Part shown: piece after piece, positions 11,497-34,789 of the stretch
Position numbering within the stretch: position 1 is the first letter of the stretch
How the letters are laid out: every line of letters begins with the position of its first letter
Assembly: GCA_947165115.1 (NCBI GenBank)
Contig: CAMUZD010000001.1
Location: forward strand, 1-34,789
Reading direction: 5' to 3'
Source of the DNA: an uncultured Clostridia bacterium
Lineage (GTDB): Bacteria > Bacillota > Clostridia > Oscillospirales > Acutalibacteraceae
Length of the DNA stretch: 34,789 bases
Translations under genes and position numbers: made by a program
Notes under the pieces: generated by a model
Told to the model about the DNA's origin: nothing
Seen by the model: only the letters and a program-made list of their open reading frames with translations
Databases searched by the model: none

Positions 11497-11800
11497 AAAA
11501 GTCCTCCTGATTTATTTTTAAATTTAGATTATATAATATATTATTTGCCGATTCTAAATCTAAGTAATTATCATATACGCTTATTGAAATAACACTATCA
11601 TCTTTTTTGAAAAATAGATAAATGCAGTAAAAGATTCTCCCAACTAATCAGAGCTTTTTGCTTACACGCTGAAGCTTTAGATTCTTAGTAATTTCAATGT
11701 ACTATTTATAAAAATCAATTAATATCCCTTCAATTATCCGTTATATTAAAACCAAATTATCAAATTAGTTTTAACTTTATTATCCATATTAGTGTTCGTA

Positions 11801-12400: not shown

Positions 12401-12545
12401 ATTTGTTTGCCTTTTTAAATTTGCTGAGAGATGCCGGTGCTTTAGGCTGATAAATAGCGGTACAGGTAGTGCTGTTCGCATCTCTTCTTAATGTTTTTTC
12501 CGCAACGATTTTAACGACCTTTGCAGTTGTTTTCTTAAAAGTCAT
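12390..12545 (-). CDS. agrD: AgrD-like cyclic autoinducer propeptide, copy 1 (51 aa)
   Basis: Manual translation MTFKKTTAKVVKIVAEKTLRRDANSTTCTAIYQPKAPASLSKFKKANKFVK; AAAGGAGGGA SD; clostridial-type C-xxx-Y-QPK-x-P pattern; overlaps the agrB start. Confidence 0.9.
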   Translation of the reverse strand: MTFKKTTAKVVKIVAEKTLRRDANSTTCTAIYQPKAPASLSKFKKANKFVK

Positions 12546-12567
12546 TATTATCCCTCCTTTCAATGAC

Positions 12568-12640
12568 AGAATAGCAAAATCAATTACACAAAAGCAATAA
12601 AACTGTCAAACTGCAATAAAATCGTGCATAAATGTAGAAT
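12568..12640 (-). promoter_or_regulatory. Putative agrD promoter with upstream imperfect direct repeats (candidate LytTR/AgrA site); identical copy at 27936-28008
   Basis: Minus strand TTGCTT-18nt-TATTCT with TG extension; upstream TACATTT and TGCAGTT are 21 bp apart; GCAATAAAA occurs twice on + (12594, 12613). Confidence 0.45.
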
Positions 12641-12761
12641 TTCACATCATTTCAAAACAGTTAAAAAATTTTTCTGATTATTCATAATATAACAAAACTG
12701 TTCTGTTATGCATTCTGTTAAAACTCCAAAGGATAATCTAAAATTATCCGAGGTGATAACA

Positions 12762-13079
12762 ATGAGTAATACCCAAAATCTAATTGGGCTCCGAATTATG
12801 CAAAGAAGAAAAGAATTGCGGCTAAGCCAAGAAAAGCTTGCGGAAAAACTAGGTATATCCAAGAACCATTTATCAAACATTGAACGGGGCAAATATATGC
12901 CAACAACAGAATGTATATTCAAGATCTGCAGCGCGATGGGAAACACTCCGGATTTTTATCTGGTCGGCACGCCCACTTCGGAAACCGATGAAATTGTTTG
13001 CTTGATCAAAGCTATGCCGTTAAACGAACAAATGAAACTTGTTGAATTGCTTCGCTTCTATATTGATAATCTCATTTAG
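12762..13079 (+). CDS. XRE/Cro-C1 family HTH transcriptional regulator, copy 1
   Basis: IGLRIMQRRKELRLSQEKLAEKLGISKNHLSNIERGKYMP is a classic HTH_3; GAGGTG SD favours ATG 12762 over 12708. Confidence 0.92.
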   Translation: MSNTQNLIGLRIMQRRKELRLSQEKLAEKLGISKNHLSNIERGKYMPTTECIFKICSAMGNTPDFYLVGTPTSETDEIVCLIKAMPLNEQMKLVELLRFYIDNLI

Positions 13080-13097
13080 CATTGACTTTATCTACTC

Positions 13098-13165
13098 TTG
13101 ACAATCAGAACACCGCATGATATAATATCGACAAATCAAGAAATCAAATCCTGATTTGTCGATAT
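13098..13165 (+). promoter_or_regulatory. Consensus sigma-A promoter with overlapping 14-bp inverted repeat, upstream of the AAA ATPase
   Basis: TTGACA (13098-13103), 17 nt, TATAAT (13121-13126) with TG extension; ATATCGACAAATCA (13125-13138) pairs with TGATTTGTCGATAT (13152-13165). Confidence 0.8.
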
Positions 13166-13188
13166 AATTGCTTTGAGTAGGTGAATTA

Positions 13189-14448
13189 ATGGACTATATT
13201 AAGCGTAATATCGAAGAGCTGGTTAAAAACTCGGAAAAAACATTTAAATGTGTATTGGTAACCGGAGCGCGTCAGACCGGCAAATCCACTATGCTTAAAA
13301 CTTTATTCCCTGATAAGAAATATGTACCAATTGACGATCCTTTCATTGAGGAGCAAGCAAACGAAAACCCCAATATGTTTATAATGCTGAATCCTCCTCC
13401 CGCATTTTATGATGAGGTTCAGAGGGCACCCGGCCTTTTTCGCTTTATTAAGATTAAATGCGATGAAAGCAACCAATATGGATTGTTTTGCCTATCAGGG
13501 TCACAGCCTTTGGAACTGATGGAAAATGCATCCGAATCTCTTTCGGGTCGAGTTAGTATAGTCGAATTAGCTGGTTTGTCGTTGCGCGAGATTCAGAGAT
13601 CTGCATTTAATGAGCCATTTGTTCCTACAATGGATTATGTTAAAAAACGCAGTCAATCAGCCAAAGCTCCCGATAATATATGGGAGATAATTCATAAGGG
13701 AGGGTATCCTGAGCTTCAAAACCCTGATTTGAATTGGTCATCATTCTTTTCCAGTTATGTCAAAACATATCTTGAGCGAGATGTTCGTAAACTGTCAGCC
13801 GTTCAAGACTTAGATGATTTCAGACGATTTATGATTGCAGTAGCTGCACGAACAGGACAAATGCTTAATTATGCCAATATAGCTGATGAAATAGGAAAAG
13901 ATGCCGGAACAGTCAAAAAATGGATGTCTATTTTAGAAGCTTCCGGTATTGTATATTTGCTGGAGCCTTATACTCCATCTGTACTTAAAAAAGCAATCAA
14001 AACTCCTAAGGTTTATTTTAGAGACACAGGTCTTGCAGCTTATCTCACCCGTTGGCTCACTCCTGAAGCGTTGGCTTATGGTGCTATGAGCGGTGCTATG
14101 TTTGAAACATATGTAATAACAGAAATACTTAAATCTTATTCAAACCAAGGCATTGACTACAGATATTGTGTCTCATATTATAGGGGCAGAGATAAAAAGG
14201 TAACTCGCAAAGACGGTCTTGAAGTGGAAACCGAGAGCGAGATTGATCTTATTATTGAAGAAAATGGTGTTCTTTATCCTATCGAGATTAAACAAAGTTT
14301 TTCAGTAACAGCCGATCAAGCCGGTACCTTCAAAGTTTTGGATAAAGTTGAAGAAAAGAAACGCGGAATGGGGGCAATAATATGCACTTGTCCTCAGCCT
14401 AATCTGTTGCGTGATAATCTGTTGCAACTACCGGTTTGGTTTATATAA
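13189..14448 (+). CDS. AAA_14 family ATPase with DUF4143 C-terminal domain
   Basis: Walker A GARQTGKST, Walker B FYDEVQR, SGS, ESLSGR, GGYP, TYLERDV, KTPKVYFRDTGL, GAMFETYV, EIDLII...PIEIK. Confidence 0.93.
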   Translation: MDYIKRNIEELVKNSEKTFKCVLVTGARQTGKSTMLKTLFPDKKYVPIDDPFIEEQANENPNMFIMLNPPPAFYDEVQRAPGLFRFIKIKCDESNQYGLFCLSGSQPLELMENASESLSGRVSIVELAGLSLREIQRSAFNEPFVPTMDYVKKRSQSAKAPDNIWEIIHKGGYPELQNPDLNWSSFFSSYVKTYLERDVRKLSAVQDLDDFRRFMIAVAARTGQMLNYANIADEIGKDAGTVKKWMSILEASGIVYLLEPYTPSVLKKAIKTPKVYFRDTGLAAYLTRWLTPEALAYGAMSGAMFETYVITEILKSYSNQGIDYRYCVSYYRGRDKKVTRKDGLEVETESEIDLIIEENGVLYPIEIKQSFSVTADQAGTFKVLDKVEEKKRGMGAIICTCPQPNLLRDNLLQLPVWFI

Positions 14449-14470
14449 TTTAAATATATTAAAATGAAAC

Positions 14471-14499
14471 CTCCCCAACTTAACAAATCAGTTGGGGAG
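14471..14499. terminator. Probable (bidirectional) terminator between convergent genes; member of a repeated palindrome family
   Basis: CTCCCCAACT-9nt-AGTTGGGGAG; near-identical arms at 30536-30561. Confidence 0.65.
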
Positions 14500-14594
14500 T
14501 TACTTATACGATGAATTAATTAAGAAATCAGTCAGCAAGTAATCCAGTAATTAATTGCGGCTTCCATATTTTAAAATCTACGCTTGTTTATCAT

Positions 14595-15032
14595 TTAATC
14601 ATTGTAAATCATTACTATAGCTGTAACAATTCCTATAATTATTGCTATTCCTTCAATAATCAAAAACGGTTTTTTCAACACTGTTACATCTCTTTTTTCT
14701 ACCCTTCGAATGATAAAGAGGAATAGAAAAACAACCGGAATAATAAGAAATGAACAACCAATCACAGTGTAAGGCAGTCCGATTAAAAGATAAGTAATGA
14801 TGTCAAACAAACCTTCCTCATATTTAAGCATAGTATATAGGAAGGGGACTATTGATAAAGCGATAGATAAAGCAAACAATATTAAGGTTATTAGTTTCGA
14901 CTGCTTATTCTTGTATCTAAAAACGCAGTATTTGTATGAACTGAATAATACTATTGCGGGAATAAGGCAAAAAAAGCTAAATAGTGAAAGGGAATTCATA
15001 ACTATTTCTATATAACTAATGATAGAGTCCAT
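14595..15032 (-). CDS. Putative membrane immunity protein of the orphan Rhs tip (about 4 TM helices)
   Basis: 145 aa, hydrophobic; overlaps the 3' end of the orphan Rhs; its SD GGAGG lies inside the toxin's W-R codons. Confidence 0.7.
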   Translation of the reverse strand: MDSIISYIEIVMNSLSLFSFFCLIPAIVLFSSYKYCVFRYKNKQSKLITLILFALSIALSIVPFLYTMLKYEEGLFDIITYLLIGLPYTVIGCSFLIIPVVFLFLFIIRRVEKRDVTVLKKPFLIIEGIAIIIGIVTAIVMIYND

Positions 15033-16141
15033 TAAGATTCATCCTCCAAATAGTTTCATATACTAATGATCTGATTTCTCTTTCTTTTCCTTCCTCTTGT
15101 CCGATTGAAATAGGGTCCGAGTGAGCATAAAGGAATCCGATTACTTCATTTGGCACCATATAATTTTCAGGATTATACATAACAGCATATTTTAGTAACT
15201 TAGCCTCATCGACCGTAGCATAATATAAAAAGGTATGAGCATATATTTCTTTAGCAACTCTTTCTTTACTGCCGGCACCATCGACCCAAGTGTAATACTT
15301 AGCAACAATAGAACAAATTTTCTTATCTCTAAATGAACGACAAACATCAAAATCGCATCCAGATTCTTTTTTTCCTTGAAATATAACCAAAGAGACATAA
15401 AAGTAGTCACCAAGATTATAGCAGTTTGATAATAAATATAGTCGTTCATTAAAAGGAACGCCAGAAAACAACAGTAAAGCTGTACCTCCTAATTTATAAA
15501 ATACTTTTAACGCTTCATTCTCTGTCGAAACTTCATAAACATTCCCCCTCGGATCCACAAACATCACAGGATTATTCAGACAATACGCAAACATATTGGT
15601 GCTGTTGATGTGGTCGCCGGCTACAAGGTAAGCGTCGGCCGAGATAAATCTGCCCGTCTGCGGATCGTAGTAACGGCTCTGGAGATAATACAGCTCGGAT
15701 TCTTCATCATAGACATATCCGCGATATCTCAGAGGATTAAAGTATGCAAGATCTCCGTAACCGGTTGTTATGGTGGAAGTTCCGGGTTTTCCCCACGCGT
15801 CATATCTGTACTTTACGACCACATTACCGCTTGCATCAGCAAGTCCGAGAACATCACCCTGTATGTTAAGGATGTAGTAATATACTGTGTTGTCATATTT
15901 CAGAGCAAAAGGTCTGCCGTCCGCTCCGTAAGAAATATCAAGCGTATGTCCCGATACTTCGGTTCTGACAAGCTGAGAACCGGAATAGTAGTAACTGTAA
16001 TCATCGTATCCTGTATTTCTTTCCGTCCTCAATCCGTTTTCATCATAGGCAAATGTCATACTGTAGTTAGAATCTGTCAGTGACATAAGCCGGTTGCGGT
16101 CCCAGGTCATTGCATGTCCGCGGTAAGATGTCGGATTGCCG
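15016..16141 (-). pseudogene. Orphan Rhs core plus C-terminal tip module (ORF 15016-16110; no signal peptide or N-terminal body)
   Basis: Starts mid-YD repeat with homology to Rhs2 from about 16141; YYYILNIQGDV, YDAWG, LRYRGY, LYYLQSR, NNPVMFVDPRG, then a variant tip; no SD visible before ATG 16110. Confidence 0.85.
16099..16141 (+). repeat. 43-bp exact repeat shared by the orphan module and Rhs2 (17661-17703)
   Basis: GTCCCAGGTCATTGCATGTCCGCGGTAAGATGTCGGATTGCCG in both; a second 37-bp exact match lies at 15549-15585 / 17114-17150. Confidence 0.9.
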
Positions 16142-16146
16142 GCATT

Positions 16147-16563
16147 TTATCTCAAGAATACTTTTGTCACAATCATTATGATTGTTGATGCGCCGACAAA
16201 AGCTGCATACAGAATCCAAAATATAGGCGCAATCTTTTTTTTATCTGTTTTTGCAGTTATTATTAAAGGAATTGGAATAAGTACAGAGAATAAGCCGGCA
16301 TATCTTGTAAATGAGATTATTGGAGTAGTTATCAAGGATATAAATGCCCAGGTTATGTCATCAAATGCAAACAGAATTGTAGGCAGAATCATAGCAAAAC
16401 CAATAATAATTAATAACACTTTCACAACAAAAGGCTTCTTCTTAAATGTTCCGAAAGCATAATAATAGAACAACAAAGATATAGAATAGAAAGGAAACAA
16501 AAAGTAAAGTATGCACCAAAATATATCTTTTATATAATCAGGCGCATTTTCAAAAAAAATCAT
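16147..16563 (-). CDS. Putative membrane immunity protein of Rhs2 (about 4 TM helices)
   Basis: Hydrophobic ORF; ATGA overlap with the Rhs2 stop and GGAGG 5 nt upstream favour ATG 16563 over 16575. Confidence 0.72.
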   Translation of the reverse strand: MIFFENAPDYIKDIFWCILYFLFPFYSISLLFYYYAFGTFKKKPFVVKVLLIIIGFAMILPTILFAFDDITWAFISLITTPIISFTRYAGLFSVLIPIPLIITAKTDKKKIAPIFWILYAAFVGASTIIMIVTKVFLR

Positions 16564-19500
16564 TTGATCCTCCAAATCATATCATAAAACTTTAAAGCTG
16601 CATTTGAATCATGCCCAATATCAATAAGGTCCGTGCGGTTATTCAAAAATTTTATCATATATTCTCCAAATCCTTCAAATGCAGCATATTCGCTATAATT
16701 ATTTATTATTGTATTCTTATTATAATCTGTTGCATAGTAAACAACTGCATGAGCAAATATTTCTTGTGGTGTTGCGCCAAATTTAGAAGGCAAATATGAT
16801 GCAACAATTATACAAACTTTTTTGTTTTGAAAAGACCTACAAACTTCAAAATGTAAAGCATCATTTTTGTTTTTATCTTCATTTACAAACACTCCATTAT
16901 CGGCATCATTTTCTAATTTAAAAAGTAAATAATACCTTGAGAAAAAAATTATAGTAGCTATATATGTGTAATCTCCAACATCATAAACATTTTCATATAA
17001 TTCTTGGATGCTTGAAGGTGAAACGCCTGATAAAATCAAGAGAACATCTCCAAATGTCTTAAAGAAAACTTTCAAAGAGTCGTTTGTTATATTTGCTTCA
17101 TATGCCTTTCCCTTCGGATCCACAAACATCACAGGATTATTCAGACAATATGCAAACATATTGGTTGAATTTATGTGGTCACCGGCAACAAGGTAAGCAT
17201 CAGCAGAAATAAATCTGCTTGTACCCGGGTCATACCAGCGGCTCTGGAGATAATACAGTTTAGTCTCCGAGTCATAATAGTATCCTCTGTATCTCAGCGA
17301 GTTATAGTATCCGACAGTTGAGGCGAGAGTTCCTGTTCTGGATACCGGTTTGCCCCAGGCATCATAGGCATAATTTACTACAACATCACCGTTTGAATCA
17401 CAAATGCCGACAACATCACCCTGAATATTCAGAATGTAATAATAGAGAGTGTTGTTGTATTTTAATGCATAAGGTCTTCCGTCTGCGCCGTAATAATAGA
17501 ATATATCGATTGAGGTATACTTTTCCCTTACAAGCTGTGTGCCGGAATAGTAATAGTTAGTTACCATACCGAAAACATCTCTGGATGTCCTGAGACCGTT
17601 ATGATCATAAGTATAGGTAACATCGTAACCGTTGTAACCGACAGTAGTGAGTCTGTTCCTGTCCCAGGTCATTGCATGTCCGCGGTAAGATGTCGGATTG
17701 CCGTTGGCATCATATGCTATCGTATCATTACCGAACTGCGTTACACCGTTTTTCCAGTTGTTATTTGTGTATGAATATGAAATGCTGTCAGAGAGCGTAC
17801 TCGGATATATAGTACCCGTTGTATACCAGTAGCTGTCTTTTGACAGTATGTCGCCGTTTACATCATAGGTATAAACGGAGGTTTCGTATGAATAATAATT
17901 GTCTTCTCTGACAAGACGGTTCAATTCATCATAATGATACCCGATTTTCTGATTGCCGTTTTCATATACCTTGGTTATGTTGCCGTTGCTGTCATAATCA
18001 TAACTCAGGGTAGGATAGAGCTGCGATGTAACTCCGCCGATGGTTTTATTGTAACTTACAGCATCAATCCTTCCTGTCTGATTGCTGCCGTTGGCCTCAT
18101 ATGTATATGAGTTTGATACAGAGTCAGTTGTTCCGATTGTTCCTGTTGATGATGTCAGCCGGTTCAATCCGTCATATGAATAGGAAATGTCGCTGCCGAT
18201 TGTTTCAAGCGAAGTTCCCGAAACTCTGTTTTTGGTATCATATGAATATGACTGCTCGTTTATAACTTCGTTATTGTCAGTAATCACGGATTTAACGGGT
18301 CTGCTCTGAGCGTCATAGGCAAACGCACTGTTTTTACCGTCGCTCTTAGATATGCCGACAGTTCTTCCCGCAGGATCATAGAGATAGGATGTAGTTACAT
18401 CATTTTCGGCATCATATACTTCGGTAAGAGCATCGTTATCGTTATACTTGTATGTATATGTGAGATTGCCGTCGTATGATGTAGATGTAAGTCTGTCTTT
18501 ATCATCATATGTATGGGTGGAATATGTGCCGTCGGCAGAATCCACTCTTGAAACAGTGCTGTCAGAATTGTAGGTTAACTCGGTAAGCGTATTTGAGCCG
18601 TTTGTTATGGTGTCGCTTCTGCCGTATAAGTCATAAGTGAAACCATATGATATATCGGTATTGGAAATGTTTGTAAGTCTGTTTATACCATCATACTGAT
18701 AATTGACCTGAGCGACATCATTGCCGACATCGGCATATATGCTGCTGATCAAATCACTGCTGTTGTATGAGTAATTTGTTTCATTGCCGTTAGGGTCGGT
18801 TACCTTGGTAAGATTACCCGAACTTGCATCATACGCATATGATGTGACTGCGCCCGATGAATCGGTTACGCTTGTTAAATAGTTGTTATCAGATGAATAT
18901 GCGTATGAGGTTGTTGCCGACAGGTTATCGCTTCCGGTTACGGTAGCGGTTACAGGCAGGCCTTTATTGGGCGAGGGATATGTGTATGATGTGGTAATTC
19001 CGCTGACTGAATCCGATGCGGTGAGGATATTATGGTTGTTATCATAGGTATAAGTCACATTACCCAATGTGACATTATTGGATATCTGCTGAATGCCGGA
19101 AACATCGTGAGTGGTGCCGTTATATGAAATTTGCTTTGAGTTTCCGATACCGTCAGAAACGGCGGTTACCTGACGGTTGTTATTGTAATCATAATTATAC
19201 CCGTAAACCACGCCTTTGTAAAGGAACAAATCTTTAAAAGAAGCCGAGGATGCCTGTTTGTCATTATGAAGTTCTATTCTTACCGAATCAAAACTATAGT
19301 TCGAATGAATTTTTGTTAAAACATGATTCCATTCTTCCGTGTTAGGATCACCCGGCAAAGAAACAATCTCTCTGTCAGAACCGCCAGATATGAATACAAT
19401 CTTTACACCGTAATATGAGTCAGAACCCAAAGGGAATGATTTTGATTTTTCAGAAATACCAAATACAAATTCTTCACCGGCATTCCCTTTCAAAGGAAAT

Positions 19501-22500
19501 GTTTCTTTTAAAATCTGTGTATAAGTTAATGTAGCTCCGACAGTTGCGCGGCCATCATATGTTGTCCAGTTACCACCGTCTGTTTGCCAGTAATTTGAAA
19601 CTGAGTTGTTAACATTTTTGAATCCGGGATCCGGAATCATATTATACGATTTAATTGTATTTCCCTCAATTGCTTGTGCAATATCGCAGTAAACAGTTCC
19701 GGTAAAATCTTCAAACACTAGATATACACTGACTGTTGACTGGCCTGCAGGAACCGTAATTGAAGTGCTTAACGGCATCCACGAATTGGCTGTAGTTGTT
19801 ATGGCAGGGCTGGTAGACTCAGCACTTCCCGAAACAAGCTTCAGATATACTTTTCCGCTCTGAAGAGTATCAATAATATTAAGTTCAACACTGACAGAAT
19901 ATGTATTACCGGGGGTTGCCGTAAAACCTTCAGGCCATGAGCCCGGCCTGAAAGAACCCCATGAACCGTTTCCGGTTATCTTTTTGGCAGTAGGATAATT
20001 GTTTGTTCTTTCCGTACTCAAAGTAGATGACAGAGTCGACGGTGAAGAATACAAAGACCAGTTTTTCATCTGCCTGTTATCTCTGGAAAAAAGATTATCA
20101 TTTCCCGAAAACGGATTTGACTTGTATGATACAGTGTTATTCAGATTCCCGTTATTGTTGTAACCTATTTTTGAAGTGTTGCCTTTTGATGTATAAGAAA
20201 CCGGTCTTCCTAACCAATCATAATCTATACTGACAGAATCATCATGATTGTTCTGAACTAACGATTGGAATGTATAGTATGTGAAATTCAGTTTATCATT
20301 ATAACTGCCGGAATTGTTTTCACCATATACAGTCACGGACTTCATTTTTGTATACAGATTTGTATATAAATACAGTGTGTCAAATTCAATTACCCATCTG
20401 GCATTCACGTTATTCTTTATCTCATTCAGATAACTGTTTGAATATGACAGGTAAGTGTGCTTTCCGTCGGGATAAGTTATACCCGTCAAAAATACTCCTG
20501 TATAGGTATAGCTTGTTTCCCTGCCGGCATTGTCGGTGATTTTGGTAAGGTAGTTGTTTGAATCATATGTAAATGATATAGTCTGATTTGCTCCGCTTGT
20601 CACCTGTGCTATCTGATTATTGGTATATGTAATCTGAATGGTATTGTTATTTGTATCCTTTATCTCAGTTAAGAAACCGCTTGAATTGAAAGTTTTTGTT
20701 GCTCCGTTTAAATATGTCAGCCTGTATCCGCCGCTGATTGTTGTATATATTGTTGTGGGATCATCCTCGACTCGGTATGCGCTGTCTTTCCATACTATTT
20801 TATGCTCAGTTCCATCCGCATCCAGATATGTGCTTGAAGATATTTTCTCGATAAGATTAAGCTTGAAGCCCCTGCCGAAATTCATATTGCCGTAGTTTAC
20901 GTTATACATATCGGGACTTCCGTAGATATGAGAAACACCGACGGGCAGAACAAGTCCGCTCGTTGCAGCGTCATTATGAACATAGTAATACGCGCCGTTA
21001 TATGTATTGGTATAGAGCGTTCCGCTTCTGCCCATATCTACTGTCTGAAAATCCCAGTAATCTTCTAATCCAATATTAGTGTTGTAGTACAGAGTTACAT
21101 AAGGAGTATGTGACGAAGCTTCCGATGAATAGAACGACGGCTGGCAGTTTTTATTCTCGTTGCTGGTGGAAATCATAAAGCCGTTATTGTTACTGCTATG
21201 GTTATACCAATACCGTACTTTACTGGTAATATCGACACTGTATAGATGATTACTGCCACTTTTTCCTTCGATGGAGGCCAGAACAGGTGTGCCATCGGTC
21301 TGAGGACCGTTTTTTGTAGTGGACAGCGGCTGATTATTCCAGGTGATTCCGCTTTCTGTCCATGATGAATAACCTGTTAAATCGAACAGTTTTATATATT
21401 TAACATCGTCGCTGAATGAATATGACAGGCTTTTCTGCGTGAAATTCAAACTGGCATGCCAAATTATTGTGTTATCGGGCATACCCGGAAGCGTAAACTT
21501 CATATATGACCTTCTGAGACTAAGAAAACCGTTGCCCGAGTAAAGAGTATCCTCATTGCCGTAGTTTGTAGTATTCTGCAGATATCTGACCGAAGCATCG
21601 ATAAAACTGCTCGATGAGATATTTACAGTTGGATCGATTCTTACCGGAAACTCTCTTTTATTGCTGTTTATCCATTTGGCATTTGCAGTAACGGTCAGGA
21701 TATTGTCTTCAAGTTTCATTTCCACTTCATCGCTATATTCGCCGTTTGCGTCAACCATATACGGTGCCGCGAATGTATATATGGCTTCCTCATCGTCTTC
21801 GGATTTGAAGAAACCGATCGAGCCGTCATCATTTATTACAGGAATCAGATCGCCGTAATTGAGTTCAAACTTATATTCATAATTATCATGTTTGCTGTTT
21901 ACGACTATATCTTCCTTTATTTTTGAGGAGCTGACCGTATATTCCAAATCTGCACCGTTAAGTGCAGCCTTATATTCAACTTTAGAGGCAGAAGTTTTTG
22001 ATTCTATAGTTTCAGCATTAGCTATTTTGATTACCGAAGTATCTTCCCCGTAATCCACAACATCTTTTGCGGCATCTGTTACAACTGTTTTTTCACTTTT
22101 ATTATCTTTTCCCGAAAGGACACTCATACTGAAATCATAACCGTCTTTTGAAAACTCAATTTTGCTGCCGTTTTCAATAGTCTGAGGCAATCTCAGATCA
22201 ATACCCGAAGCTTTGGGTGAATATGCTCCGTCTTTAAAGACAAGAGAATTATCGATTTCTTTCCAAGCGCCGTCTGAATCCTGATAATGAACGGGTTCGG
22301 AATACACAACAGCAACATTTGCACCGTTTTCGAGACTGAAATGCTTTACATTCTCCTCACGCAATCCCTCTATCTCGCCGCTAATACGGGAATCGCCGTC
22401 GTAAAACGTCTTGATTTCCTGCTCATCGACGACATTGCTTTCACTCTCAGCTACATTTGACGCAAAGCCCACCACGCCGGTCTGGAACACCATAACCAGT

Positions 22501-22547
22501 GTTAGAAGGATTGATAGGGCTTTAAGAGTAATTTTCATTACTTTCAT
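16560..22547 (-). CDS. Secreted WapA-like Rhs/YD polymorphic toxin (Rhs2) with DNRLRE-like domain, probable carbohydrate-binding-like inserts, Rhs core and C-terminal tip
   Basis: Signal peptide; FPVRIDP; TNYG...RSYMKF...VDITSKVRYW...NNGFMI; many YD repeats; YDAWG, YRGYYYDSETKLYYLQSRWYDP, NNPVMFVDPKG cleavage motif; GGAG SD. Confidence 0.93.
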   Translation of the reverse strand: MKVMKITLKALSILLTLVMVFQTGVVGFASNVAESESNVVDEQEIKTFYDGDSRISGEIEGLREENVKHFSLENGANVAVVYSEPVHYQDSDGAWKEIDNSLVFKDGAYSPKASGIDLRLPQTIENGSKIEFSKDGYDFSMSVLSGKDNKSEKTVVTDAAKDVVDYGEDTSVIKIANAETIESKTSASKVEYKAALNGADLEYTVSSSKIKEDIVVNSKHDNYEYKFELNYGDLIPVINDDGSIGFFKSEDDEEAIYTFAAPYMVDANGEYSDEVEMKLEDNILTVTANAKWINSNKREFPVRIDPTVNISSSSFIDASVRYLQNTTNYGNEDTLYSGNGFLSLRRSYMKFTLPGMPDNTIIWHASLNFTQKSLSYSFSDDVKYIKLFDLTGYSSWTESGITWNNQPLSTTKNGPQTDGTPVLASIEGKSGSNHLYSVDITSKVRYWYNHSSNNNGFMISTSNENKNCQPSFYSSEASSHTPYVTLYYNTNIGLEDYWDFQTVDMGRSGTLYTNTYNGAYYYVHNDAATSGLVLPVGVSHIYGSPDMYNVNYGNMNFGRGFKLNLIEKISSSTYLDADGTEHKIVWKDSAYRVEDDPTTIYTTISGGYRLTYLNGATKTFNSSGFLTEIKDTNNNTIQITYTNNQIAQVTSGANQTISFTYDSNNYLTKITDNAGRETSYTYTGVFLTGITYPDGKHTYLSYSNSYLNEIKNNVNARWVIEFDTLYLYTNLYTKMKSVTVYGENNSGSYNDKLNFTYYTFQSLVQNNHDDSVSIDYDWLGRPVSYTSKGNTSKIGYNNNGNLNNTVSYKSNPFSGNDNLFSRDNRQMKNWSLYSSPSTLSSTLSTERTNNYPTAKKITGNGSWGSFRPGSWPEGFTATPGNTYSVSVELNIIDTLQSGKVYLKLVSGSAESTSPAITTTANSWMPLSTSITVPAGQSTVSVYLVFEDFTGTVYCDIAQAIEGNTIKSYNMIPDPGFKNVNNSVSNYWQTDGGNWTTYDGRATVGATLTYTQILKETFPLKGNAGEEFVFGISEKSKSFPLGSDSYYGVKIVFISGGSDREIVSLPGDPNTEEWNHVLTKIHSNYSFDSVRIELHNDKQASSASFKDLFLYKGVVYGYNYDYNNNRQVTAVSDGIGNSKQISYNGTTHDVSGIQQISNNVTLGNVTYTYDNNHNILTASDSVSGITTSYTYPSPNKGLPVTATVTGSDNLSATTSYAYSSDNNYLTSVTDSSGAVTSYAYDASSGNLTKVTDPNGNETNYSYNSSDLISSIYADVGNDVAQVNYQYDGINRLTNISNTDISYGFTYDLYGRSDTITNGSNTLTELTYNSDSTVSRVDSADGTYSTHTYDDKDRLTSTSYDGNLTYTYKYNDNDALTEVYDAENDVTTSYLYDPAGRTVGISKSDGKNSAFAYDAQSRPVKSVITDNNEVINEQSYSYDTKNRVSGTSLETIGSDISYSYDGLNRLTSSTGTIGTTDSVSNSYTYEANGSNQTGRIDAVSYNKTIGGVTSQLYPTLSYDYDSNGNITKVYENGNQKIGYHYDELNRLVREDNYYSYETSVYTYDVNGDILSKDSYWYTTGTIYPSTLSDSISYSYTNNNWKNGVTQFGNDTIAYDANGNPTSYRGHAMTWDRNRLTTVGYNGYDVTYTYDHNGLRTSRDVFGMVTNYYYSGTQLVREKYTSIDIFYYYGADGRPYALKYNNTLYYYILNIQGDVVGICDSNGDVVVNYAYDAWGKPVSRTGTLASTVGYYNSLRYRGYYYDSETKLYYLQSRWYDPGTSRFISADAYLVAGDHINSTNMFAYCLNNPVMFVDPKGKAYEANITNDSLKVFFKTFGDVLLILSGVSPSSIQELYENVYDVGDYTYIATIIFFSRYYLLFKLENDADNGVFVNEDKNKNDALHFEVCRSFQNKKVCIIVASYLPSKFGATPQEIFAHAVVYYATDYNKNTIINNYSEYAAFEGFGEYMIKFLNNRTDLIDIGHDSNAALKFYDMIWRIK

Positions 22548-26046: not shown

Positions 26047-26273
26047 GCGTGAACGCCGCCGGCATAAGCTCGAATAATGCTGAATAAGACATAGAAAACT
26101 AAGCTTTCAAGAACAATGTTCAAAATCACTCCAAATATCAGTGATATGATGAGGAACAACAGTTTTGAAATCAATATATAGAATCCATATGCATAAAGTT
26201 CAACATCTTCATTCTGTATAACAGAAGAACGAGCCAAACCGACGGCGATACACTCTGACAATTTACTTAACAG
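26047..26273 (-). pseudogene. agrB: Truncated agrB (5' part only, ending at GGVHA; start position is CTG)
   Basis: Near-identical to 12174-12400, then abruptly unrelated sequence (frame stops at 26001); lacks the catalytic Cys and C-terminal helices. Confidence 0.88.
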
Positions 26274-26418
26274 ATTTGTCTGTTTTTTTGAATTTGCTGA
26301 GAGATGCCGGTGCTTTAGGCTGATAGATAGCGGTACAGGTAGTGCTATTTGCATCTCTTCTTAATGATTTTTCTGCAACAATCTTAACTAACTTTGCAGT
26401 TGTTTTCTTCAAAGTCAA
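26263..26418 (-). CDS. agrD: AgrD-like propeptide, copy 2 (51 aa, TTG start)
   Basis: MTLKKTTAKLVKIVAEKSLRRDANSTTCTAIYQPKAPASLSKFKKTDKSVK; AAAGGAGGGA SD retained, promoter region not retained. Confidence 0.85.
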   Translation of the reverse strand: MTLKKTTAKLVKIVAEKSLRRDANSTTCTAIYQPKAPASLSKFKKTDKSVK

Positions 26419-26469
26419 AATTGTCCCTCCTTTCAATGGAATATTATTTTGTCCAATTAATAGTTTTGT

Positions 26470-27105
26470 TCAGTCAGCATCATCAGAATATTCTGCATTT
26501 AGTTCAATTCTTGTTCTATCAAATGGAATTTCTTTTTTGCAAGCTTCAACAGCTATGTTATATTCATCCGACCTAAATATTTTGTCAAATTTTTCGGCAT
26601 TTAAAATGGAATTGCCAATATTCATTATTTTAATATTCCCGTTTTTACCATATATTCCGGGGGTTCCGTCATGTCTTACGGCACCATAGAAAACACATAT
26701 ATCATTTCCCTCGGGTAAAAAGTCGCCGTCTTCAAGAACAAGTTGTTTTGTTCCCCAATAGTAGCCACCATATTTATGAAACTGAAAGCTTTCGTTTTCT
26801 TTGAGGTTTCCTTTTAAGCACTCTAATACAGTTATGTTCAACAAGGTATATGGAGTTCCAATATTATCTTCAGCAAATTGTTTTTCATACTTTGTTTTAC
26901 TTACACTATTTACTCTTCCAATAAAAACGAAATCAGCTATTCCTGTCATTGCATAAGGATTATCCACATCTATTACATAGTCAACATCCATAATATTCGA
27001 TTTTGCAGTTAAATACATATGATAGAATCCAAAGCCTGTTCCAGTTATTACTGTGGCAAAAAGCAGCAAGCATATTATTATGGTTTTGGTTTTATTCTTT
27101 TTCAT
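26470..27105 (-). CDS. Membrane-anchored hypothetical protein, likely partner of the metalloprotease
   Basis: N-terminal TM helix; ADFVFIGRV ... PYT...VLECLKG ... GG pattern; AAGGTG SD; co-oriented after the protease. Confidence 0.75.
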   Translation of the reverse strand: MKKNKTKTIIICLLLFATVITGTGFGFYHMYLTAKSNIMDVDYVIDVDNPYAMTGIADFVFIGRVNSVSKTKYEKQFAEDNIGTPYTLLNITVLECLKGNLKENESFQFHKYGGYYWGTKQLVLEDGDFLPEGNDICVFYGAVRHDGTPGIYGKNGNIKIMNIGNSILNAEKFDKIFRSDEYNIAVEACKKEIPFDRTRIELNAEYSDDAD

Positions 27106-27138
27106 ACAGTTTTCACCTTCTCATTAATAACTTTATAA

Positions 27139-27666
27139 TTAATAATATGTATATGCGAGATCATAAGATGCTTTATCATCGACTGTTAGTGTAGTGTTTT
27201 CACTTTTGCCCTGTTTCATTACATTGGTTGACAAACTGTAGTTATTCTCACCCAATCCAAGTGCATGACCCAATTCATGCATAACTGTCTTTAATCTGTT
27301 GTTATAGTTCCAGGATGAATTGTTTAAATAATAGCTATTTAATTGTATTCTTGCGGACAAATATTCTGTCTTGCCTGCCCAAATAACATTGCTACTATTT
27401 GTATCTATTATTTTTACATCTTGAATGGTTAATATCGTGTCCGGCCTCAATATGCCCGCTTTATAATTATTCCATTTTTGTACCGCAGTAGTTATATAAC
27501 TTCCATAGCTCGATTGATTTGCATCATAATCACAATGTTTATTTGAATCCACCAAATCAAATCCAGATATTACGGCATTGGCAGCGAAAGCATTAATTGA
27601 AAAAATTGAAAAATATATACATAGCACCATAACAACGGAAAACAGTTCAATTATTTTATTCTTCAT
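27139..27666 (-). CDS. Secreted matrixin-like (metzincin) zinc metalloprotease
   Basis: Signal peptide ending AFA; AVQKWN; HELGHALGLGE; Met-turn NVMKQ; LTVDDK..Y...Y; AGGAG SD. Confidence 0.85.
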   Translation of the reverse strand: MKNKIIELFSVVMVLCIYFSIFSINAFAANAVISGFDLVDSNKHCDYDANQSSYGSYITTAVQKWNNYKAGILRPDTILTIQDVKIIDTNSSNVIWAGKTEYLSARIQLNSYYLNNSSWNYNNRLKTVMHELGHALGLGENNYSLSTNVMKQGKSENTTLTVDDKASYDLAYTYY

Positions 27667-27730
27667 TTGTAAAACTCCTAGTTTAATAGTATCAAAAATC
27701 TAATAATGAAATAGTTGGTTAAATACAATG

Positions 27731-27768
27731 AAACCGACGGCGATATGCTCTGATAAATTACTTAACAA
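27731..27768 (-). pseudogene. agrB: agrB stub (about 12 codons)
   Basis: TTG-start MLSNLSEHIAVG matches the agrB N-terminus MLSKLSERLAVG; homology stops at 27731. Confidence 0.8.
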
Positions 27769-27913
27769 ATTTGTCTGCTTTTTTGAATTTGCTGAGAGAT
27801 GCCGGTGTTTTAGGCTGATAAATAGCAGTGCAAGTTGTGCTGTTCGCATCTCTTCTTAATGTTTTTTCCGCAACGATTTTAACGACCTTTGCAGTTGTTT
27901 TCTTAAAAGTCAT
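27758..27913 (-). CDS. agrD: AgrD-like propeptide, copy 3 (51 aa)
   Basis: MTFKKTTAKVVKIVAEKTLRRDANSTTCTAIYQPKTPASLSKFKKADKFVK; AAAGGAGGGA SD; full promoter region retained. Confidence 0.9.
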   Translation of the reverse strand: MTFKKTTAKVVKIVAEKTLRRDANSTTCTAIYQPKTPASLSKFKKADKFVK

Positions 27914-28129
27914 TATTATCCCTCCTTTCAATGACAGAATAGCAAAATCAATTACACAAAAGCAATAAAACTGTCAAACTGCAATAAAATCGTGCATAAA
28001 TGTAGAATTTCACATCATTTCAAAACAGTTAAAAAATTTTTCTGATTATTCATAATATAACAAAACTGTTCTGTTATGCATTCTGTTAAAACTCCAAAGG
28101 ATAATCTAAAATTATCCGAGGTGATAACA

Positions 28130-30535: not shown

Positions 30536-30573
30536 CTCCTCAACTAATGTCAGTTGGGGAGCTCTGCTTTTTT
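30536..30573 (+). terminator. Rho-independent terminator after agrC (same palindrome family as 14471-14499)
   Basis: CTCCTCAACT-AATGTC-AGTTGGGGAG followed by CTCTGCTTTTTT. Confidence 0.65.
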
Positions 30574-30632
30574 AGTCCGTATTTTCGGACTTTGTTTTTG
30601 TTAGACTATATAATGGAAGATTAAGAAAGGAA

Positions 30633-33500
30633 GTGATTTCAGTGAAAGATTCGAAAGAGTTTGCCCGTGAGCATTCATACAAAATCCCTATGCTTGATGC
30701 GTCGGTAATCTGTCGTCTTAACGCTTCCGACAGCGGATTGAAACTGTATGAAAGAGTCAAGGACTCAAAAGGAAATGAAAAATACAAACCGAACACTGCT
30801 CTTTTCAGCGGTGCGCTGAAATGCTGCCTTGAAACAGAAAAACTGGAATCGGTATATAAAGAAACATTCAGAGTAAAATCTTTTTGCTCGGTTCATAATG
30901 ATAACAGATATTCCGATGCGTTAATAAGCGTTTCCTTTGATTCAACATATAAAGAATACAATCTGTTCGGCAAGGTTGAAGGATATCACGGCGAAGGCAA
31001 ACTGTATGTAAAAGCCGGTTACTATTATGAAAACAGTAAGGTTATTGATTCAAACGGTAATGAATATGGGATTACAGATAATATCTGCTTAAATGGTGAT
31101 GAAATACTCGCCGTGGTAACAAATATCCCTGTGCAGAAGACTAATCTTCCCGTCGGTTGCCATAATTTCGGATTTGATGCAAAAAATAACTGCTATACAT
31201 TCAGACAGGCAAAAACAATACTGTCTACATCAGATTTGAGAGAGCTGCTCTATGATAATGGATTTACTATGCTCAACGCTAAAGGCAATCCGATTGAATA
31301 TGTCAGGTATAAACGCAGCGCAGGTATGAGCCGCATCGGCAAGTGCTATTTTATCCGTAAAGAGATGTATAAAAAAATGATGGCCTGGAGCGATTTCAGT
31401 CCGGGTAGTTCAAAAATAAATGCGGAACTGAAAGAATACGGTCTAACGCTCATATCGGATCCCGTTGCTCACGAAGCATATACGGCTCTGTCTCTGAGCA
31501 CCATAGAAGATACAGTTGAAATCCCGCTTGACTCAATTCTTTTTATGAGGGATGTAGAAGGATTCTCAACTCCCGATGCAATCAATGTAAAATGCGAAGA
31601 AGGCAAAGTTGTTGCAAAGAGAGAAAGAGTCAACATCTCAAGTATCCTTTGGGACGGTGAAGCTCTGCTGGATGAATCTGTTTTTGAGCAGGCCGGCAGA
31701 AGTAATAAGGGAATGATGCTGCTCCGCAACAGATATTTCAAATCCTGCGCGTTCAATACCAGATTACAGGAATGGTTTAATACAAGTAAGATTAAAGAAG
31801 TTTCTCAGTTAAACGGATTTACTCTCGCTGCCGATATCTCGCAGGTCAAAATGGTAGTAACCGAATCAAGTCTTAAATTTCTGAAGATGTTCGATGGTGA
31901 ATTTGAAGATAAGATCAGATTTTGGGTTGAACATGTCAAAAATAACGGTGGTAATGTATTCGGCATAGTCAAGAGTGAAAAGCCGACAAAGTTTGCCGGC
32001 GGTCAGTATGTAAGAACAAGTTATCAGTTAATCAATACGATAAATATTACAGAGGAAGAAGCGAAAACGCTTGTTGTCCCTGTGAAAGAATTCAAGCGGA
32101 ATCTAAGAAATGATTACCGCTATATGAAGTATTATCTTGATGAATTTCGCTCTGACGATTCCGATGCCGGTTTTAATCCTCTTCTTTATAAGAAGAAAAT
32201 TGTTTCCCGTATTCTCGATAAATATCCGGAATTTGCCGAAACAAAAATGTATTATGGTTTCAGAAATGATATTATCGGAGAAATAAATAATTCGATTAAA
32301 CACGGCAAACTGCTTGTCCGCGGAACAAACGCGGTATTATTCGGAAACGGATTGGATTTACTTATTTCATGCGGCTATAAAGATTATCATCCGTGGAGAC
32401 TGTTTATTGATGATCCTGACTATATATCCGTATACTCATCTTTTTTCAAAGAAAGAGCCAGGATTTTATGTGCCCGCAGTCCGCATATTACTATGGGCAA
32501 TATTATAGTTGCGGATTCAATAAAGGAAGAATATGATCATTATTTCAATCTTACGGATAACATTATCTGTGTAAATGCAATCGGAAGCACGGTCCAGCAT
32601 CGTCTCAACGGCTGTGATTATGATTCCGATGTTATGCTGATATCGGATAACAATGTTCTTTCACAAGCCGCACTGAGAGATTACGGCAGTTTCCCCGTTC
32701 CTTTTAATGGCATAGAATTCGACAAATCCGAAAACAAATCACTTGCCGAAATCGACCGTCTTATCAGTGAAAACAAAATCGGCGAGATAGTCAATCTTTC
32801 TCAAAAGCTGAATACAATCTACTGGTCAATTATCAACACACCCGATATATCCATAATTTCTCCTGAAGAACTGTATGAAGATATCTGTATTCTTGCCGTG
32901 CTTTCCAATACCGAAATTGACAAAGCAAAGCGTATATATAAAGTTGATGTTGATTCCGTGCTTGATGAACTCAAAGCGAAATATCTAGGCATATTCGGCG
33001 AGTATTTTAACGAGCCTGAATTCTGGAGATATATCAATATTTCAAGCGGAAAGCCAAAAAAGCAGGATAAAGACTATGAATGCCGCTCTCCGATGGCATA
33101 TCTCTATAATGAAGCTTGTGCCGATAAAACTCCGAGAAGCAGAAACGGCAAATTCTTCTCCGACTTGCCCGGCATTGATTACAGCAAAATCAAGGGCGTA
33201 AAAAAAGATGAAATAGCAAAGATTCTTGATACAGCAAATAAAACTGCAACGGCGTATAACAGAGCGATAACGAAAATACTCAGTGCCGCCAACAAACACG
33301 GCAGGCACGGGCAAAACAACACCGATGCCAGAATGAGCGATATCGCTGTTATCCTGACATCGGGTATTGAAAGAATATCAAAGTTGTGTAAAACCGAGGC
33401 ACATCGTCTTGCCGTTCTGCGTGAGATTGATAATATGATGCATGTGCAGAAAAGAGCCGAAACTGAGCAGTGGGTGTTGTTGGCTGGAGTGTGGGAATAA
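30633..33500 (+). CDS. YonO-like / RdRP-homologous single-subunit two-barrel RNA polymerase
   Basis: 955 aa; LCARSPH (RSPH at 32475-32486) followed by RLNGCDYDSD (NGCDYDSD at 32607-32630; DxDGD-type metal-binding loop, three Asp kept); also WDGEALLD, RNRYFKSCAF, SYQLINT, IGEIVNLS, EIDKAK in the order I recall for YonO-like proteins; TATAAT at 30609 and AAAGGAAG SD. Confidence 0.78.
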   Translation: MISVKDSKEFAREHSYKIPMLDASVICRLNASDSGLKLYERVKDSKGNEKYKPNTALFSGALKCCLETEKLESVYKETFRVKSFCSVHNDNRYSDALISVSFDSTYKEYNLFGKVEGYHGEGKLYVKAGYYYENSKVIDSNGNEYGITDNICLNGDEILAVVTNIPVQKTNLPVGCHNFGFDAKNNCYTFRQAKTILSTSDLRELLYDNGFTMLNAKGNPIEYVRYKRSAGMSRIGKCYFIRKEMYKKMMAWSDFSPGSSKINAELKEYGLTLISDPVAHEAYTALSLSTIEDTVEIPLDSILFMRDVEGFSTPDAINVKCEEGKVVAKRERVNISSILWDGEALLDESVFEQAGRSNKGMMLLRNRYFKSCAFNTRLQEWFNTSKIKEVSQLNGFTLAADISQVKMVVTESSLKFLKMFDGEFEDKIRFWVEHVKNNGGNVFGIVKSEKPTKFAGGQYVRTSYQLINTINITEEEAKTLVVPVKEFKRNLRNDYRYMKYYLDEFRSDDSDAGFNPLLYKKKIVSRILDKYPEFAETKMYYGFRNDIIGEINNSIKHGKLLVRGTNAVLFGNGLDLLISCGYKDYHPWRLFIDDPDYISVYSSFFKERARILCARSPHITMGNIIVADSIKEEYDHYFNLTDNIICVNAIGSTVQHRLNGCDYDSDVMLISDNNVLSQAALRDYGSFPVPFNGIEFDKSENKSLAEIDRLISENKIGEIVNLSQKLNTIYWSIINTPDISIISPEELYEDICILAVLSNTEIDKAKRIYKVDVDSVLDELKAKYLGIFGEYFNEPEFWRYINISSGKPKKQDKDYECRSPMAYLYNEACADKTPRSRNGKFFSDLPGIDYSKIKGVKKDEIAKILDTANKTATAYNRAITKILSAANKHGRHGQNNTDARMSDIAVILTSGIERISKLCKTEAHRLAVLREIDNMMHVQKRAETEQWVLLAGVWE

Positions 33501-33508
33501 TAAAAGTA

Positions 33509-33554
33509 TTGATTTTTAAGATAATATGTGATATACTACAATCGCAACACATAT
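33509..33554 (+). promoter_or_regulatory. Promoter of the abiE operon with short inverted repeat
   Basis: TTGATT (33509-33514), 17 nt, TATACT (33532-33537) with TG extension; ATATGTG (33524-33530) pairs with CACATAT (33548-33554). Confidence 0.55.
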
Positions 33555-33562
33555 AGGAATTA

Positions 33563-34192
33563 GTGTATATAGAAAGTAGTATAAATATGTCAAAGATTGA
33601 AAAAGCAAAAAGTATTATATTTGCGCACGGAGGAATTGCTAAAACCTCGGACTTTATTGCGGAAGGTTTTTTCAGGTCAGATTTGGGCTGGCTTATATCT
33701 AAAGGTGTAATAGAGCGTGTTCGTCAAGGTTACTATCAGCTTGCTGATAATTATAATATTACTGAAGCGGAGTACATCTCTAAACTCCTCCCTGAAGGAA
33801 TAGTGTGTGTTGAGTCCGCTCTGTTTTATTATGGTTATACCGATTTTACACCTCGCGAATGGTCAATTGCTGTTCCTCGCACGGTTTCATATGCAAAGCT
33901 AAAATCGTTTATTGTTCCTCATAAAATATACTATATTCAACCGGATAATTATGAGTTGGGAAAAACTCAAGCGGATTTCGATGGAATTATCCTTCCGATT
34001 TATGATAAAGAGCGAACAATATGTGACTGCTTTAAATATCGCAACAAGCTGGATAGCGAACTATTTGCCAAAGCAGTCAATGCATATGTTGTTGATAAAG
34101 AGAATAATCTTTCCAATCTCAGCAAATATGCAAAACAGCTTAGGGTCCATAATAAGATGATGAATATGATGGAGGTTTTGCTCAATGGCTGA
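33563..34192 (+). CDS. abiEi: Type IV toxin-antitoxin AbiEi-family antitoxin
   Basis: GVIERVRQGYY (wHTH), GIVCVESALFYYG, YDKERTICDCFKYRN; start may be ATG 33587; overlaps the abiEii start. Confidence 0.88.
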   Translation: MYIESSINMSKIEKAKSIIFAHGGIAKTSDFIAEGFFRSDLGWLISKGVIERVRQGYYQLADNYNITEAEYISKLLPEGIVCVESALFYYGYTDFTPREWSIAVPRTVSYAKLKSFIVPHKIYYIQPDNYELGKTQADFDGIILPIYDKERTICDCFKYRNKLDSELFAKAVNAYVVDKENNLSNLSKYAKQLRVHNKMMNMMEVLLNG

Positions 34193-34789
34193 TATAGGCG
34201 CATCTGTTCTTGCAAAATTGAGAAACAAGGCTAAAGAGACTGGCAGAAGCAACCAGCTTTGTATGCAGCTCTTTTGTCAGGAGGAATTTCTTAGGCGGCT
34301 TGAAAAATCAAAATACGCTGACAATTTTGTGCTTAAGGGCGGCTTATTTCTTTATACAATAACAGAATTTGACAGCCGCGTTACGGTAGATGTAGATTTT
34401 TTGTTGCGCAAGATTCCTAATACTCCTGAGAAACTTCGTGAGGTTATAAATGACGTTATTGAATCTGATACGACAAATGACTTCATCATGTTTGAGGTTA
34501 AGGATGTTTTGCCTATTTCTGTTAACAAACAGTATCCGGGAATTCATGCCGATATAGTGGCGCATATTAAAAATACTCGCACACCATTCGGAATTGATTT
34601 TGGTATTGGCGATATTATTGTGCCCGGTGCTGAAAAACGAAAGATTCCAACTCAGCTTGATGATTTTCCGTTACCCACCATTAACACATATTCTATTGAG
34701 ACAACTGTAGCCGAAAAGCTTGATGCTATTCTGAGTCTTATGGAATTCTCAAGCAGAATGAAAGACTATTATGATATTTACTACCTTGC
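34185..34789 (+). CDS. abiEii: AbiEii/AbiGii-family nucleotidyltransferase toxin, partial (runs off the right edge)
   Basis: Absent from the ORF track. Translation from ATG 34185: MADIGASVLAKLRNKAKE...QEEFLRRL...FVLKGGL...SRVTVDVDF...AEKLDAI...SRMKDYYDIY. Confidence 0.9.
   Translation, partial: MADIGASVLAKLRNKAKETGRSNQLCMQLFCQEEFLRRLEKSKYADNFVLKGGLFLYTITEFDSRVTVDVDFLLRKIPNTPEKLREVINDVIESDTTNDFIMFEVKDVLPISVNKQYPGIHADIVAHIKNTRTPFGIDFGIGDIIVPGAEKRKIPTQLDDFPLPTINTYSIETTVAEKLDAILSLMEFSSRMKDYYDIYYL

What the first reader, a model, noticed from the sequence alone, without database searches (positions are those of the whole stretch)
30633..33500. Stand-alone YonO-like two-barrel RNA polymerase between an agr two-component system and AbiE, with no phage genes in view
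Seen: a 955-aa ORF with RSPH and NGCDYDSD motifs, its own -10 and SD, a terminator upstream, and an independently promoted abiE downstream. Known: YonO of Bacillus phage SPbeta is a single-subunit DNA-dependent RNAP homologous to eukaryotic RdRPs and transcribes late phage genes. Here there are no structural, integrase or replication genes for 30 kb on the left. Inference: it could be a domesticated polymerase dedicated to the very long Rhs/protease operons, a defence-linked enzyme working with AbiE, or the core gene of an undescribed mobile element carrying quorum-controlled toxins.
Basis: partly seen in the sequence, partly recalled or inferred. Interest (0 to 1): 0.85.

Follow-up and report, generated by a model that had tools for sequence, protein, structure and literature searches.

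The report
Phage-type RNA polymerase on mobilizable island
A gut Clostridia genome carries an intact gene for a predicted single-chain RNA polymerase of the kind some phages use for their late genes, but close relatives sit on conjugation-mobilizable defence islands rather than in phages, where the enzyme likely transcribes the island's own transfer genes.

Summary
The ORF is real (likely 952 aa from GTG 30642). It folds like QDE-1/RDR2, keeps all eight two-barrel catalytic residues and aligns with SPbeta YonO (profile probability 98%). It is neither a prophage gene nor domesticated. Close relatives are a recurrent backbone gene of integrative mobilizable elements: att site, polymerase, variable defence cargo, ParM-like, oriT, MobV relaxase, recombinase. 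In the same genus, 5 of 5 genomes with the close ParM have the polymerase; 0 of 7 with distant ParM do. The window's right arm is probably contig C11 (not physically joined). agr, Rhs and AbiE are occasional cargo (3, 3 and 10 of 64 larger loci). Phage relatives keep SPbeta late-operon synteny. A motif, TAATnnnCGTA(A)TAG, follows the gene both in phages and in a sister island clade, a candidate promoter, but I did not find it in this window's clade. Best reading: an element-private RNA polymerase for the transfer module (45%); rivals are priming and defence. The scan found this twice before on other DNA, and a 2012 review notes such enzymes on selfish elements. Interest 0.55.

The parts
30633..33500 (+). 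YonO-type single-chain two-barrel RNA polymerase gene (likely start GTG 30642, 952 aa); catalytic set D341, R365, K370, R615, P617, D662, D664, D666
32616..32630 (+). DYDSD metal-binding motif codons
   Evidence: sequence; aspartates invariant in 22 of 22 island sequences
30536..30561 (+). terminator-like hairpin after agrC; similar hairpins precede the gene in several relatives
30574..30591 (+). palindromic box AGTCC-N8-GGACT where homology to close relatives begins; overlaps the -35 position; likely operator/promoter element
30599..30633 (+). extended -10 candidate, TATAAT and Shine-Dalgarno
   Evidence: sequence
33509..33537 (+). sigma-70-like site before abiE
   Evidence: consensus match only
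33563..34192 (+). abiEi antitoxin, first gene of the variable cargo slot
34185..34789 (+). abiEii nucleotidyltransferase, cut by the contig end
28076..30510 (+). HTH, agrA-like LytTR regulator and agrC-like kinase: upstream cargo
   Evidence: similar modules upstream in L093 and L095
2636..27931 (-). low-GC cargo: S8 protease, three Rhs genes, agrB (one whole, one short), three agrD-like genes, secreted proteins

Best explanation
The gene encodes a predicted YonO-type DNA-dependent RNA polymerase that likely belongs to the backbone of an integrative mobilizable element and likely acts as the element's private transcription enzyme, reading an element-specific promoter towards the partition-oriT-relaxase module instead of a phage late operon. 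Shown: fold, catalytic residues, purifying selection, position in relatives' elements, co-occurrence with ParM. Inferred: that contig C11 is this element's right arm; that host polymerase makes the enzyme from the boxed promoter; that the enzyme was taken from a phage with SPbeta-like late-gene order; and what it transcribes. YonO lacks the flap used for hairpin control and pauses little (PMC5467207), so it could read through host terminators between cargo genes (inference).
For: Model pLDDT 87.7; top PDB matches RDR2/QDE-1, Z 18-24 over 530-640 residues. Profile match to YonO 98.1%, E 6.5e-14; same PHROG 8308. dN/dS 0.10-0.19 in 7 of 8 pairs, one saturated. No locus carried both phage and mobilisation markers (67 phage, 50 island, 52 unclassified); island proteins form two supported clades with no phage-marked member. 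In 50 of 50 loci where a relaxase or ParM gene was visible it lay downstream on the same strand. att repeats place the gene first or second after attL in G201 and G202. ParM test 5 of 5 vs 0 of 7; relaxase test 14 of 19 decidable places. C11 shares 3.45 kb at 93% with L006, whose polymerase is 91% identical to ours, has the same GC and is held by the same two runs. Motif TAAT-N3-CGTA follows the stop on the sense strand in 8 of 38 phage and 12 of 33 non-phage loci, reverse strand 1 of 71; upstream of the relaxase in 9 of 12 polymerase-bearing, 1 of 6 close polymerase-less and 0 of 11 distant elements, chance 0.024.
Against: The motif was not found after the gene, before parM or anywhere convincing in this window's clade; a phage-trained matrix scored only 5 of 33 non-phage loci at p<0.05; kin share motifs by descent. 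Five elements with the same oriT-like sequence and close relaxases lack the polymerase, so transfer genes do not always need it. In the HTH_36 clade a terminator-like hairpin follows the gene. 100 of 130 upstream cargo families are also co-oriented, which weakens the orientation argument. Truncated or split copies exist (L210, L093, L108, L111, L003, L008). C1 and C11 are not physically joined. Loci are not independent (L144-L147 are near-identical). No activity or expression was measured.
Confidence: 0.45

Rival explanations
1. The enzyme makes primer RNA or transcribes single-stranded DNA for replication of the excised circle or after conjugative entry (the primase idea of PMC3417536).
For: It lies on the non-relaxase side of the oriT-like site, the side that enters first (PMC11541004 passages). 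In three polymerase-less elements the slot holds an HTH_36-like gene or an unassigned gene plus a DnaC-like ATPase. No Rep was recognised in the ParM/MobV elements. QDE-1 starts de novo on ssDNA (PMC9508822 passages). A structured stretch precedes parM (DNA fold z -3.0, -1.9, -5.3, -2.7).
Against: YonO is processive and displaces its RNA (PMC5467207). Three polymerase-less elements have sugar-use genes and no Rep in the slot. One polymerase element also has a primase-type zinc finger and D5-like helicase (L211). No Frpo-like long hairpin at the gene's promoter (z -1.2 to -1.9); no compensatory pairs before parM, 0 of 42; one polymerase-less control folds as well (z -3.5).
Confidence: 0.2
2. 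The enzyme serves defence: it keeps the defence cargo expressed when a phage blocks host polymerase, or it mis-transcribes YonO-type phages.
For: PADLOC matches among downstream cargo in 7 of 9 close loci scanned (one weak): RM, DRT, CBASS, AbiTii, AbiE, SIR2-like. The five close polymerase-less elements showed no such cargo directly upstream. Patchy in the genus, 8 of 60.
Against: No PADLOC match for the protein itself. It co-diverges with ParM while cargo changes. Cargo such as abiE has its own sigma-70-like site. L268 carries defence cargo without the polymerase.
Confidence: 0.2
3. Domesticated polymerase dedicated to agr-controlled Rhs/protease operons.
For: agr modules lie upstream in the window, L093 and L095; Rhs genes upstream in L093 and the distant L262.
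Against: 3 of 64 for each; agr also occurs on polymerase-less elements (L266, L270); no second box in the window; low GC and patchy distribution.
Confidence: 0.05
4. Prophage gene or decaying phage remnant with no role.
For: Relatives at 30-41% identity head phage late operons; the contig ends 1.3 kb after the gene; some copies are broken.
Against: dN/dS about 0.1 and invariant active site; no relative found in viral contigs with close patterns; no late-gene match in the genome.
Confidence: 0.05

Closest known systems
YonO of Bacillus subtilis prophage SPbeta (Forrest et al. 2017, PMC5467207)
   Same: Single chain, same PHROG 8308, 517 aligned columns at 23% identity, same catalytic residues; 30-41% phage relatives keep the order yonO-yonJ-yonG-terminase-portal-yonD.
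   Different: No late operon; sits in a relaxase-bearing island; DYDSD instead of DNDGD; about 110 aa longer; activity untested.
Eukaryotic cellular RdRPs QDE-1 and RDR2
   Same: Best structural matches over nearly the whole chain.
   Different: 11-14% identity; no Pfam RdRP match for this protein; no RNA-silencing partners seen.
RdRP-like enzymes of bacterial selfish elements (PMC3417536, citing Iyer and Aravind 2011, which I did not see)
   Same: Two-barrel enzyme on a non-phage mobile element; primase role proposed there.
   Different: The passages name REase, URI and RNase H neighbours, not relaxase, ParM or serine recombinase.
MobV-type integrative mobilizable elements such as Tn4451 (PMC5704250 passages)
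   Same: MobV-like relaxase, oriT-like inverted repeat, large serine recombinase, att repeats, no secretion system seen.
   Different: Carries an RNA polymerase and a ParM-like module; no such polymerase appears in the passages read.

Membership tests
Two-barrel polymerases | Eight invariant residues (QDE-1 D709, R738, K743, R962, P964, D1007, D1009, D1011; PMC2919709) | tested here: met
   D341, R365, K370, R615, P617, D662, D664, D666 matched by motif and spacing; invariant in 22 of 22 island sequences
Two-barrel polymerases | Two double-psi barrels in one chain | tested here: met
   Whole-chain match to QDE-1/RDR2 Z 18-24, and a lone DPBB matches 560-673; barrels not inspected residue by residue
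YonO-like proteins | Sequence homology to YonO across the catalytic region | tested here: met
YonO-like proteins | DNA-dependent, processive RNA synthesis | not testable with these tools
   needs purified enzyme
YonO as phage late polymerase | Upstream of terminase/portal operon | tested here: not met
   abiE follows here; defence cargo and ParM/MobV in close relatives
Integrative mobilizable element | Relaxase and oriT | tested here: inconclusive
   Met in relatives and on own contig C11 (Mob_Pre E 2e-28; below the NCBIfam MobV cut-off); C11 is not joined to the window; the oriT call rests on a recalled MOB_V pattern
Integrative mobilizable element | Integrase and att repeats | tested here: inconclusive
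   Met in G201 and G202; C11 has a 91-bp repeat after tRNA-Val but no integrase, and none is in the window
Integrative mobilizable element | No own type IV secretion system | tested here: inconclusive
   None seen in G202's bounded element; one VirB4-like probe found no match in the incomplete genome
Known anti-phage system | Match to a described defence protein | tested here: not met
   No PADLOC v2.0 match at E 1e-5; the library dates from 2023

The most novel reading that the evidence does not exclude
Mobilizable defence islands of gut Clostridia captured a phage late-gene RNA polymerase together with its promoter (TAATnnnCGTA(A)TAGG) and run their transfer module, or their defence cargo, on a private host-independent transcription system that polymerase-less satellites keeping the motif can borrow in trans.
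Probability: 0.3. Interest if true: 0.78.

Novelty: new variant of a known kind. Interest (0 to 1): 0.55.

Why it matters
The papers read leave two questions open: what YonO-like genes outside phages do, and what promoter YonO reads (PMC5467207, PMC2919709). This work places one large non-phage branch on mobilizable defence islands and offers a candidate promoter motif, so both become directly testable. These are also among the bacterial relatives of the eukaryotic RNA-silencing polymerases. The general idea of such enzymes on selfish elements is in print, and this scan noted the island setting twice before.

Tried and rejected
Pfam, NCBIfam, PADLOC and PDB sequence searches gave no match for the protein. 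Close-pattern scan of viral contigs found nothing. No tRNA or Rfam family in the window. No RNA holder was listed, which says nothing on expression. No contig overlap extends C1 or C11, and the rest of abiEii was not found. The upstream box as a polymerase promoter for Rhs operons: one copy in the window; similar boxes precede hsdM in L001 and an HTH-like gene on own contig C54, so it looks generic. A fixed partner gene (lead from e1-4166488): none recurs beside the gene in this clade; a LexA-like gene precedes it only in L211. Obligate primase/Rep replacement (lead from e1-2134871): partly seen, not general. A conserved box about 190 nt before parM (10 places in close and 56% loci, not in 7 polymerase-less ParM elements) could be this clade's promoter but has no match after the gene in other clade members. 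In SPbeta the best motif match inside the published primer interval scored p=0.056. Monophyly of all island polymerases is unresolved (support 0.44). The ESM Atlas gave only unnamed or RdRP-labelled clusters. Literature searches listed no paper whose title or abstract start describes a YonO-like gene on a relaxase-bearing element; subscription papers, including Iyer and Aravind 2011, were not searchable. I did not search for fused or shorter forms.

Full report
Observation. The window is all of contig C1 (35.3% GC) of a 70%-complete genome with 46.7% GC. The ORF at 30633-33500 is open; SD spacing and alignment with relatives favour GTG 30642 and 952 aa.

The protein. A search scored 7,996 candidates and found 929 relatives. 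An 89-sequence alignment gave a confident model (pLDDT 87.7, pTM 0.86) whose best solved matches are RDR2 and QDE-1 (E about 1e-14; Z 18-24), followed by phage single-chain polymerases. The best viral model match has TM 0.70. The profile aligns with SPbeta YonO at 98.1% probability, and both belong to PHROG 8308. The eight residues listed as invariant in PMC2919709 (passages) map by motif and spacing and do not vary in 22 island sequences. dN/dS is 0.10-0.19 in 7 of 8 pairs, one saturated.

Where relatives live. I fetched 11 genome, 63 viral and 80 metagenome loci (the last two are the best 80 of 150 and of 562 matches). Viral loci (30-41% identity) show polymerase, yonJ-like, yonG-like, terminase, portal, yonD-like, the SPbeta order. 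Most other loci show no phage gene but relaxases, TnpV, recombinases and defence genes. Of 169 loci, 67 had phage markers, 50 mobilisation markers, 52 neither, none both. A tree of 96 sequences (154 thinned at 93%, partial ones under 560 profile positions left out) puts island proteins in two clades (support 0.97 and 1.0) without phage-marked members; their union is unsupported. Among 97 loci without phage markers, all 50 with a visible relaxase or ParM gene have it downstream on the same strand; of the 64 that are 8 kb or longer, AbiE was found in 10, agr in 3, Rhs in 3 (not dereplicated). 100 of 130 upstream families are also co-oriented.

The window's clade. Close relatives (56-94%) follow tRNA-Glu, rlmD, ppdK, a recombinase or agr cargo, and precede variable cargo, then ParM-like, a small gene, an oriT-like repeat and MobV. 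In G202 the last 18-22 bases of ppdK recur at the recombinase end about 31 kb away; in G201 two elements lie in tandem at tRNA-Glu, each starting with DUF6061 and the polymerase. Homology starts at the palindrome at 30574 and stops at the stop codon; a contig in three runs also diverges at 30580. Downstream cargo matched PADLOC in 7 of 9 loci scanned. Searching 60 genomes of the same genus separately for polymerase (8, one a fragment) and ParM (12): all 5 with ParM at 75% or more have the polymerase, with matching divergence, and none of 7 at 54-65% do; two polymerase genomes with short contigs lack ParM. Own contig C11 (35.4% GC) carries cargo, ParM, oriT-like repeat, MobV and a 91-bp repeat after tRNA-Val; it matches L006 over 3.45 kb at 93%, and runs X1 and X3 cover both contigs in 29-30 of 30 bins, but no join exists. 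L093 and L088 share identical blocks and together show agr, Rhs, polymerase, abiEi, CBASS and ParM; L093 lacks the middle, by deletion or assembly. Record titles of genus mates read Clostridia or Acutalibacteraceae.

Sister clade. In 201 genomes of another family, 21 places had a relaxase at 68% or more; 14 have the polymerase upstream, 5 do not, 2 end too early. The five share the oriT-like sequence and carry sugar genes, an HTH_36-like gene or conjugation genes instead. The gene is therefore common and fixed in place but dispensable.

Candidate promoter. An unguided word search downstream of the stop gave TAAT-N3-CGTA as the top gapped word shared by phage and island sets. Counts are in Best explanation. 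It stays beside the gene when cargo is inserted in L262 but beside oriT in L263. SPbeta has two similar sites, about 110 nt after yonO and inside the published primer interval (p=0.056). It was not found in the window's clade.

Mechanism. Parsimony with YonO (upstream of, and co-oriented with, its target operon) and the retained motif favour element-specific transcription towards the transfer module (0.45). Priming (0.2) and defence (0.2) remain open. Nothing enzymatic was measured.

Prior knowledge. PMC5467207: parts 1-2 of 5 of the text, passages, supplement 1 whole and passages of supplement 2. PMC2919709, PMC7824862, PMC3417536, PMC5303251, PMC11541004, PMC9508822, PMC5704250: passages only. 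Other papers: search listings only. PMC3417536 states that RdRP-like enzymes occur on bacterial selfish elements and may be primases. The MOB_V oriT pattern, rlmD as an integration hotspot and the rlmD/ppdK labels are from recall of sequence features (rlmD family confirmed on a cluster member). Two earlier notes of this scan describe the same arrangement in other genomes; they are leads, not support. My island reading was written before seeing them.

Verdict. A new variant of a known kind: YonO-like by sequence and fold, not a phage late polymerase by context, likely an island-borne private RNA polymerase. Interest 0.55.

Noticed in passing
window 12390-12563, 26263-26436, 27758-27931 (-): Three near-identical agrD-like genes with the same core, in repeats of 200-740 bp; two tested match TIGR04223. 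One agrB is whole, one short, one absent; a contig in run X9 skips 26341-27837.
   Followed up: partly
window 6271-22547 (-): Two long signal-peptide-type Rhs genes plus an orphan Rhs end, with small membrane genes after two of them, likely immunity; the 1995-aa one is 88% identical to one in L093.
   Followed up: partly
window 13189-14448 (+): AAA_14/DUF4143 ATPase matching PADLOC PDC-S01.
   Followed up: no
window 14471-14586: Reverse-strand match (87%) to the stretch that directly precedes the polymerase box in L093, suggesting rearrangement of the cargo.
   Followed up: no
L221 11215-11250 and 10434-10455 (-), phage SPbeta: Two sites resembling the candidate promoter motif, one just after yonO, one inside the published start-site interval.
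   Followed up: partly
L026-L107 phage loci, 50-150 nt after the polymerase stop: A second upstream element, roughly GGACAY(A/T)TTTAGACA, precedes the motif in about ten phage loci.
   Followed up: partly
L001 19358-21493; L168 10962-12485: DRT-type reverse transcriptases (UG19, DRT4) as cargo of these islands.
   Followed up: no
L045, L059, L064 and similar: Phage polymerase genes split into two ORFs, some around an HNH gene, likely introns.
   Followed up: no
L277 (NZ_CP120752.1): A 36-kb record listed as a plasmid has phage tail genes, ParM and a 30% relative of the polymerase: likely a plasmid-phage.
   Followed up: partly
L211 9567-16888: Polymerase element with LexA-like gene, MOB_P relaxase, primase-type zinc finger, D5-like helicase and tyrosine integrase.
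   Followed up: partly
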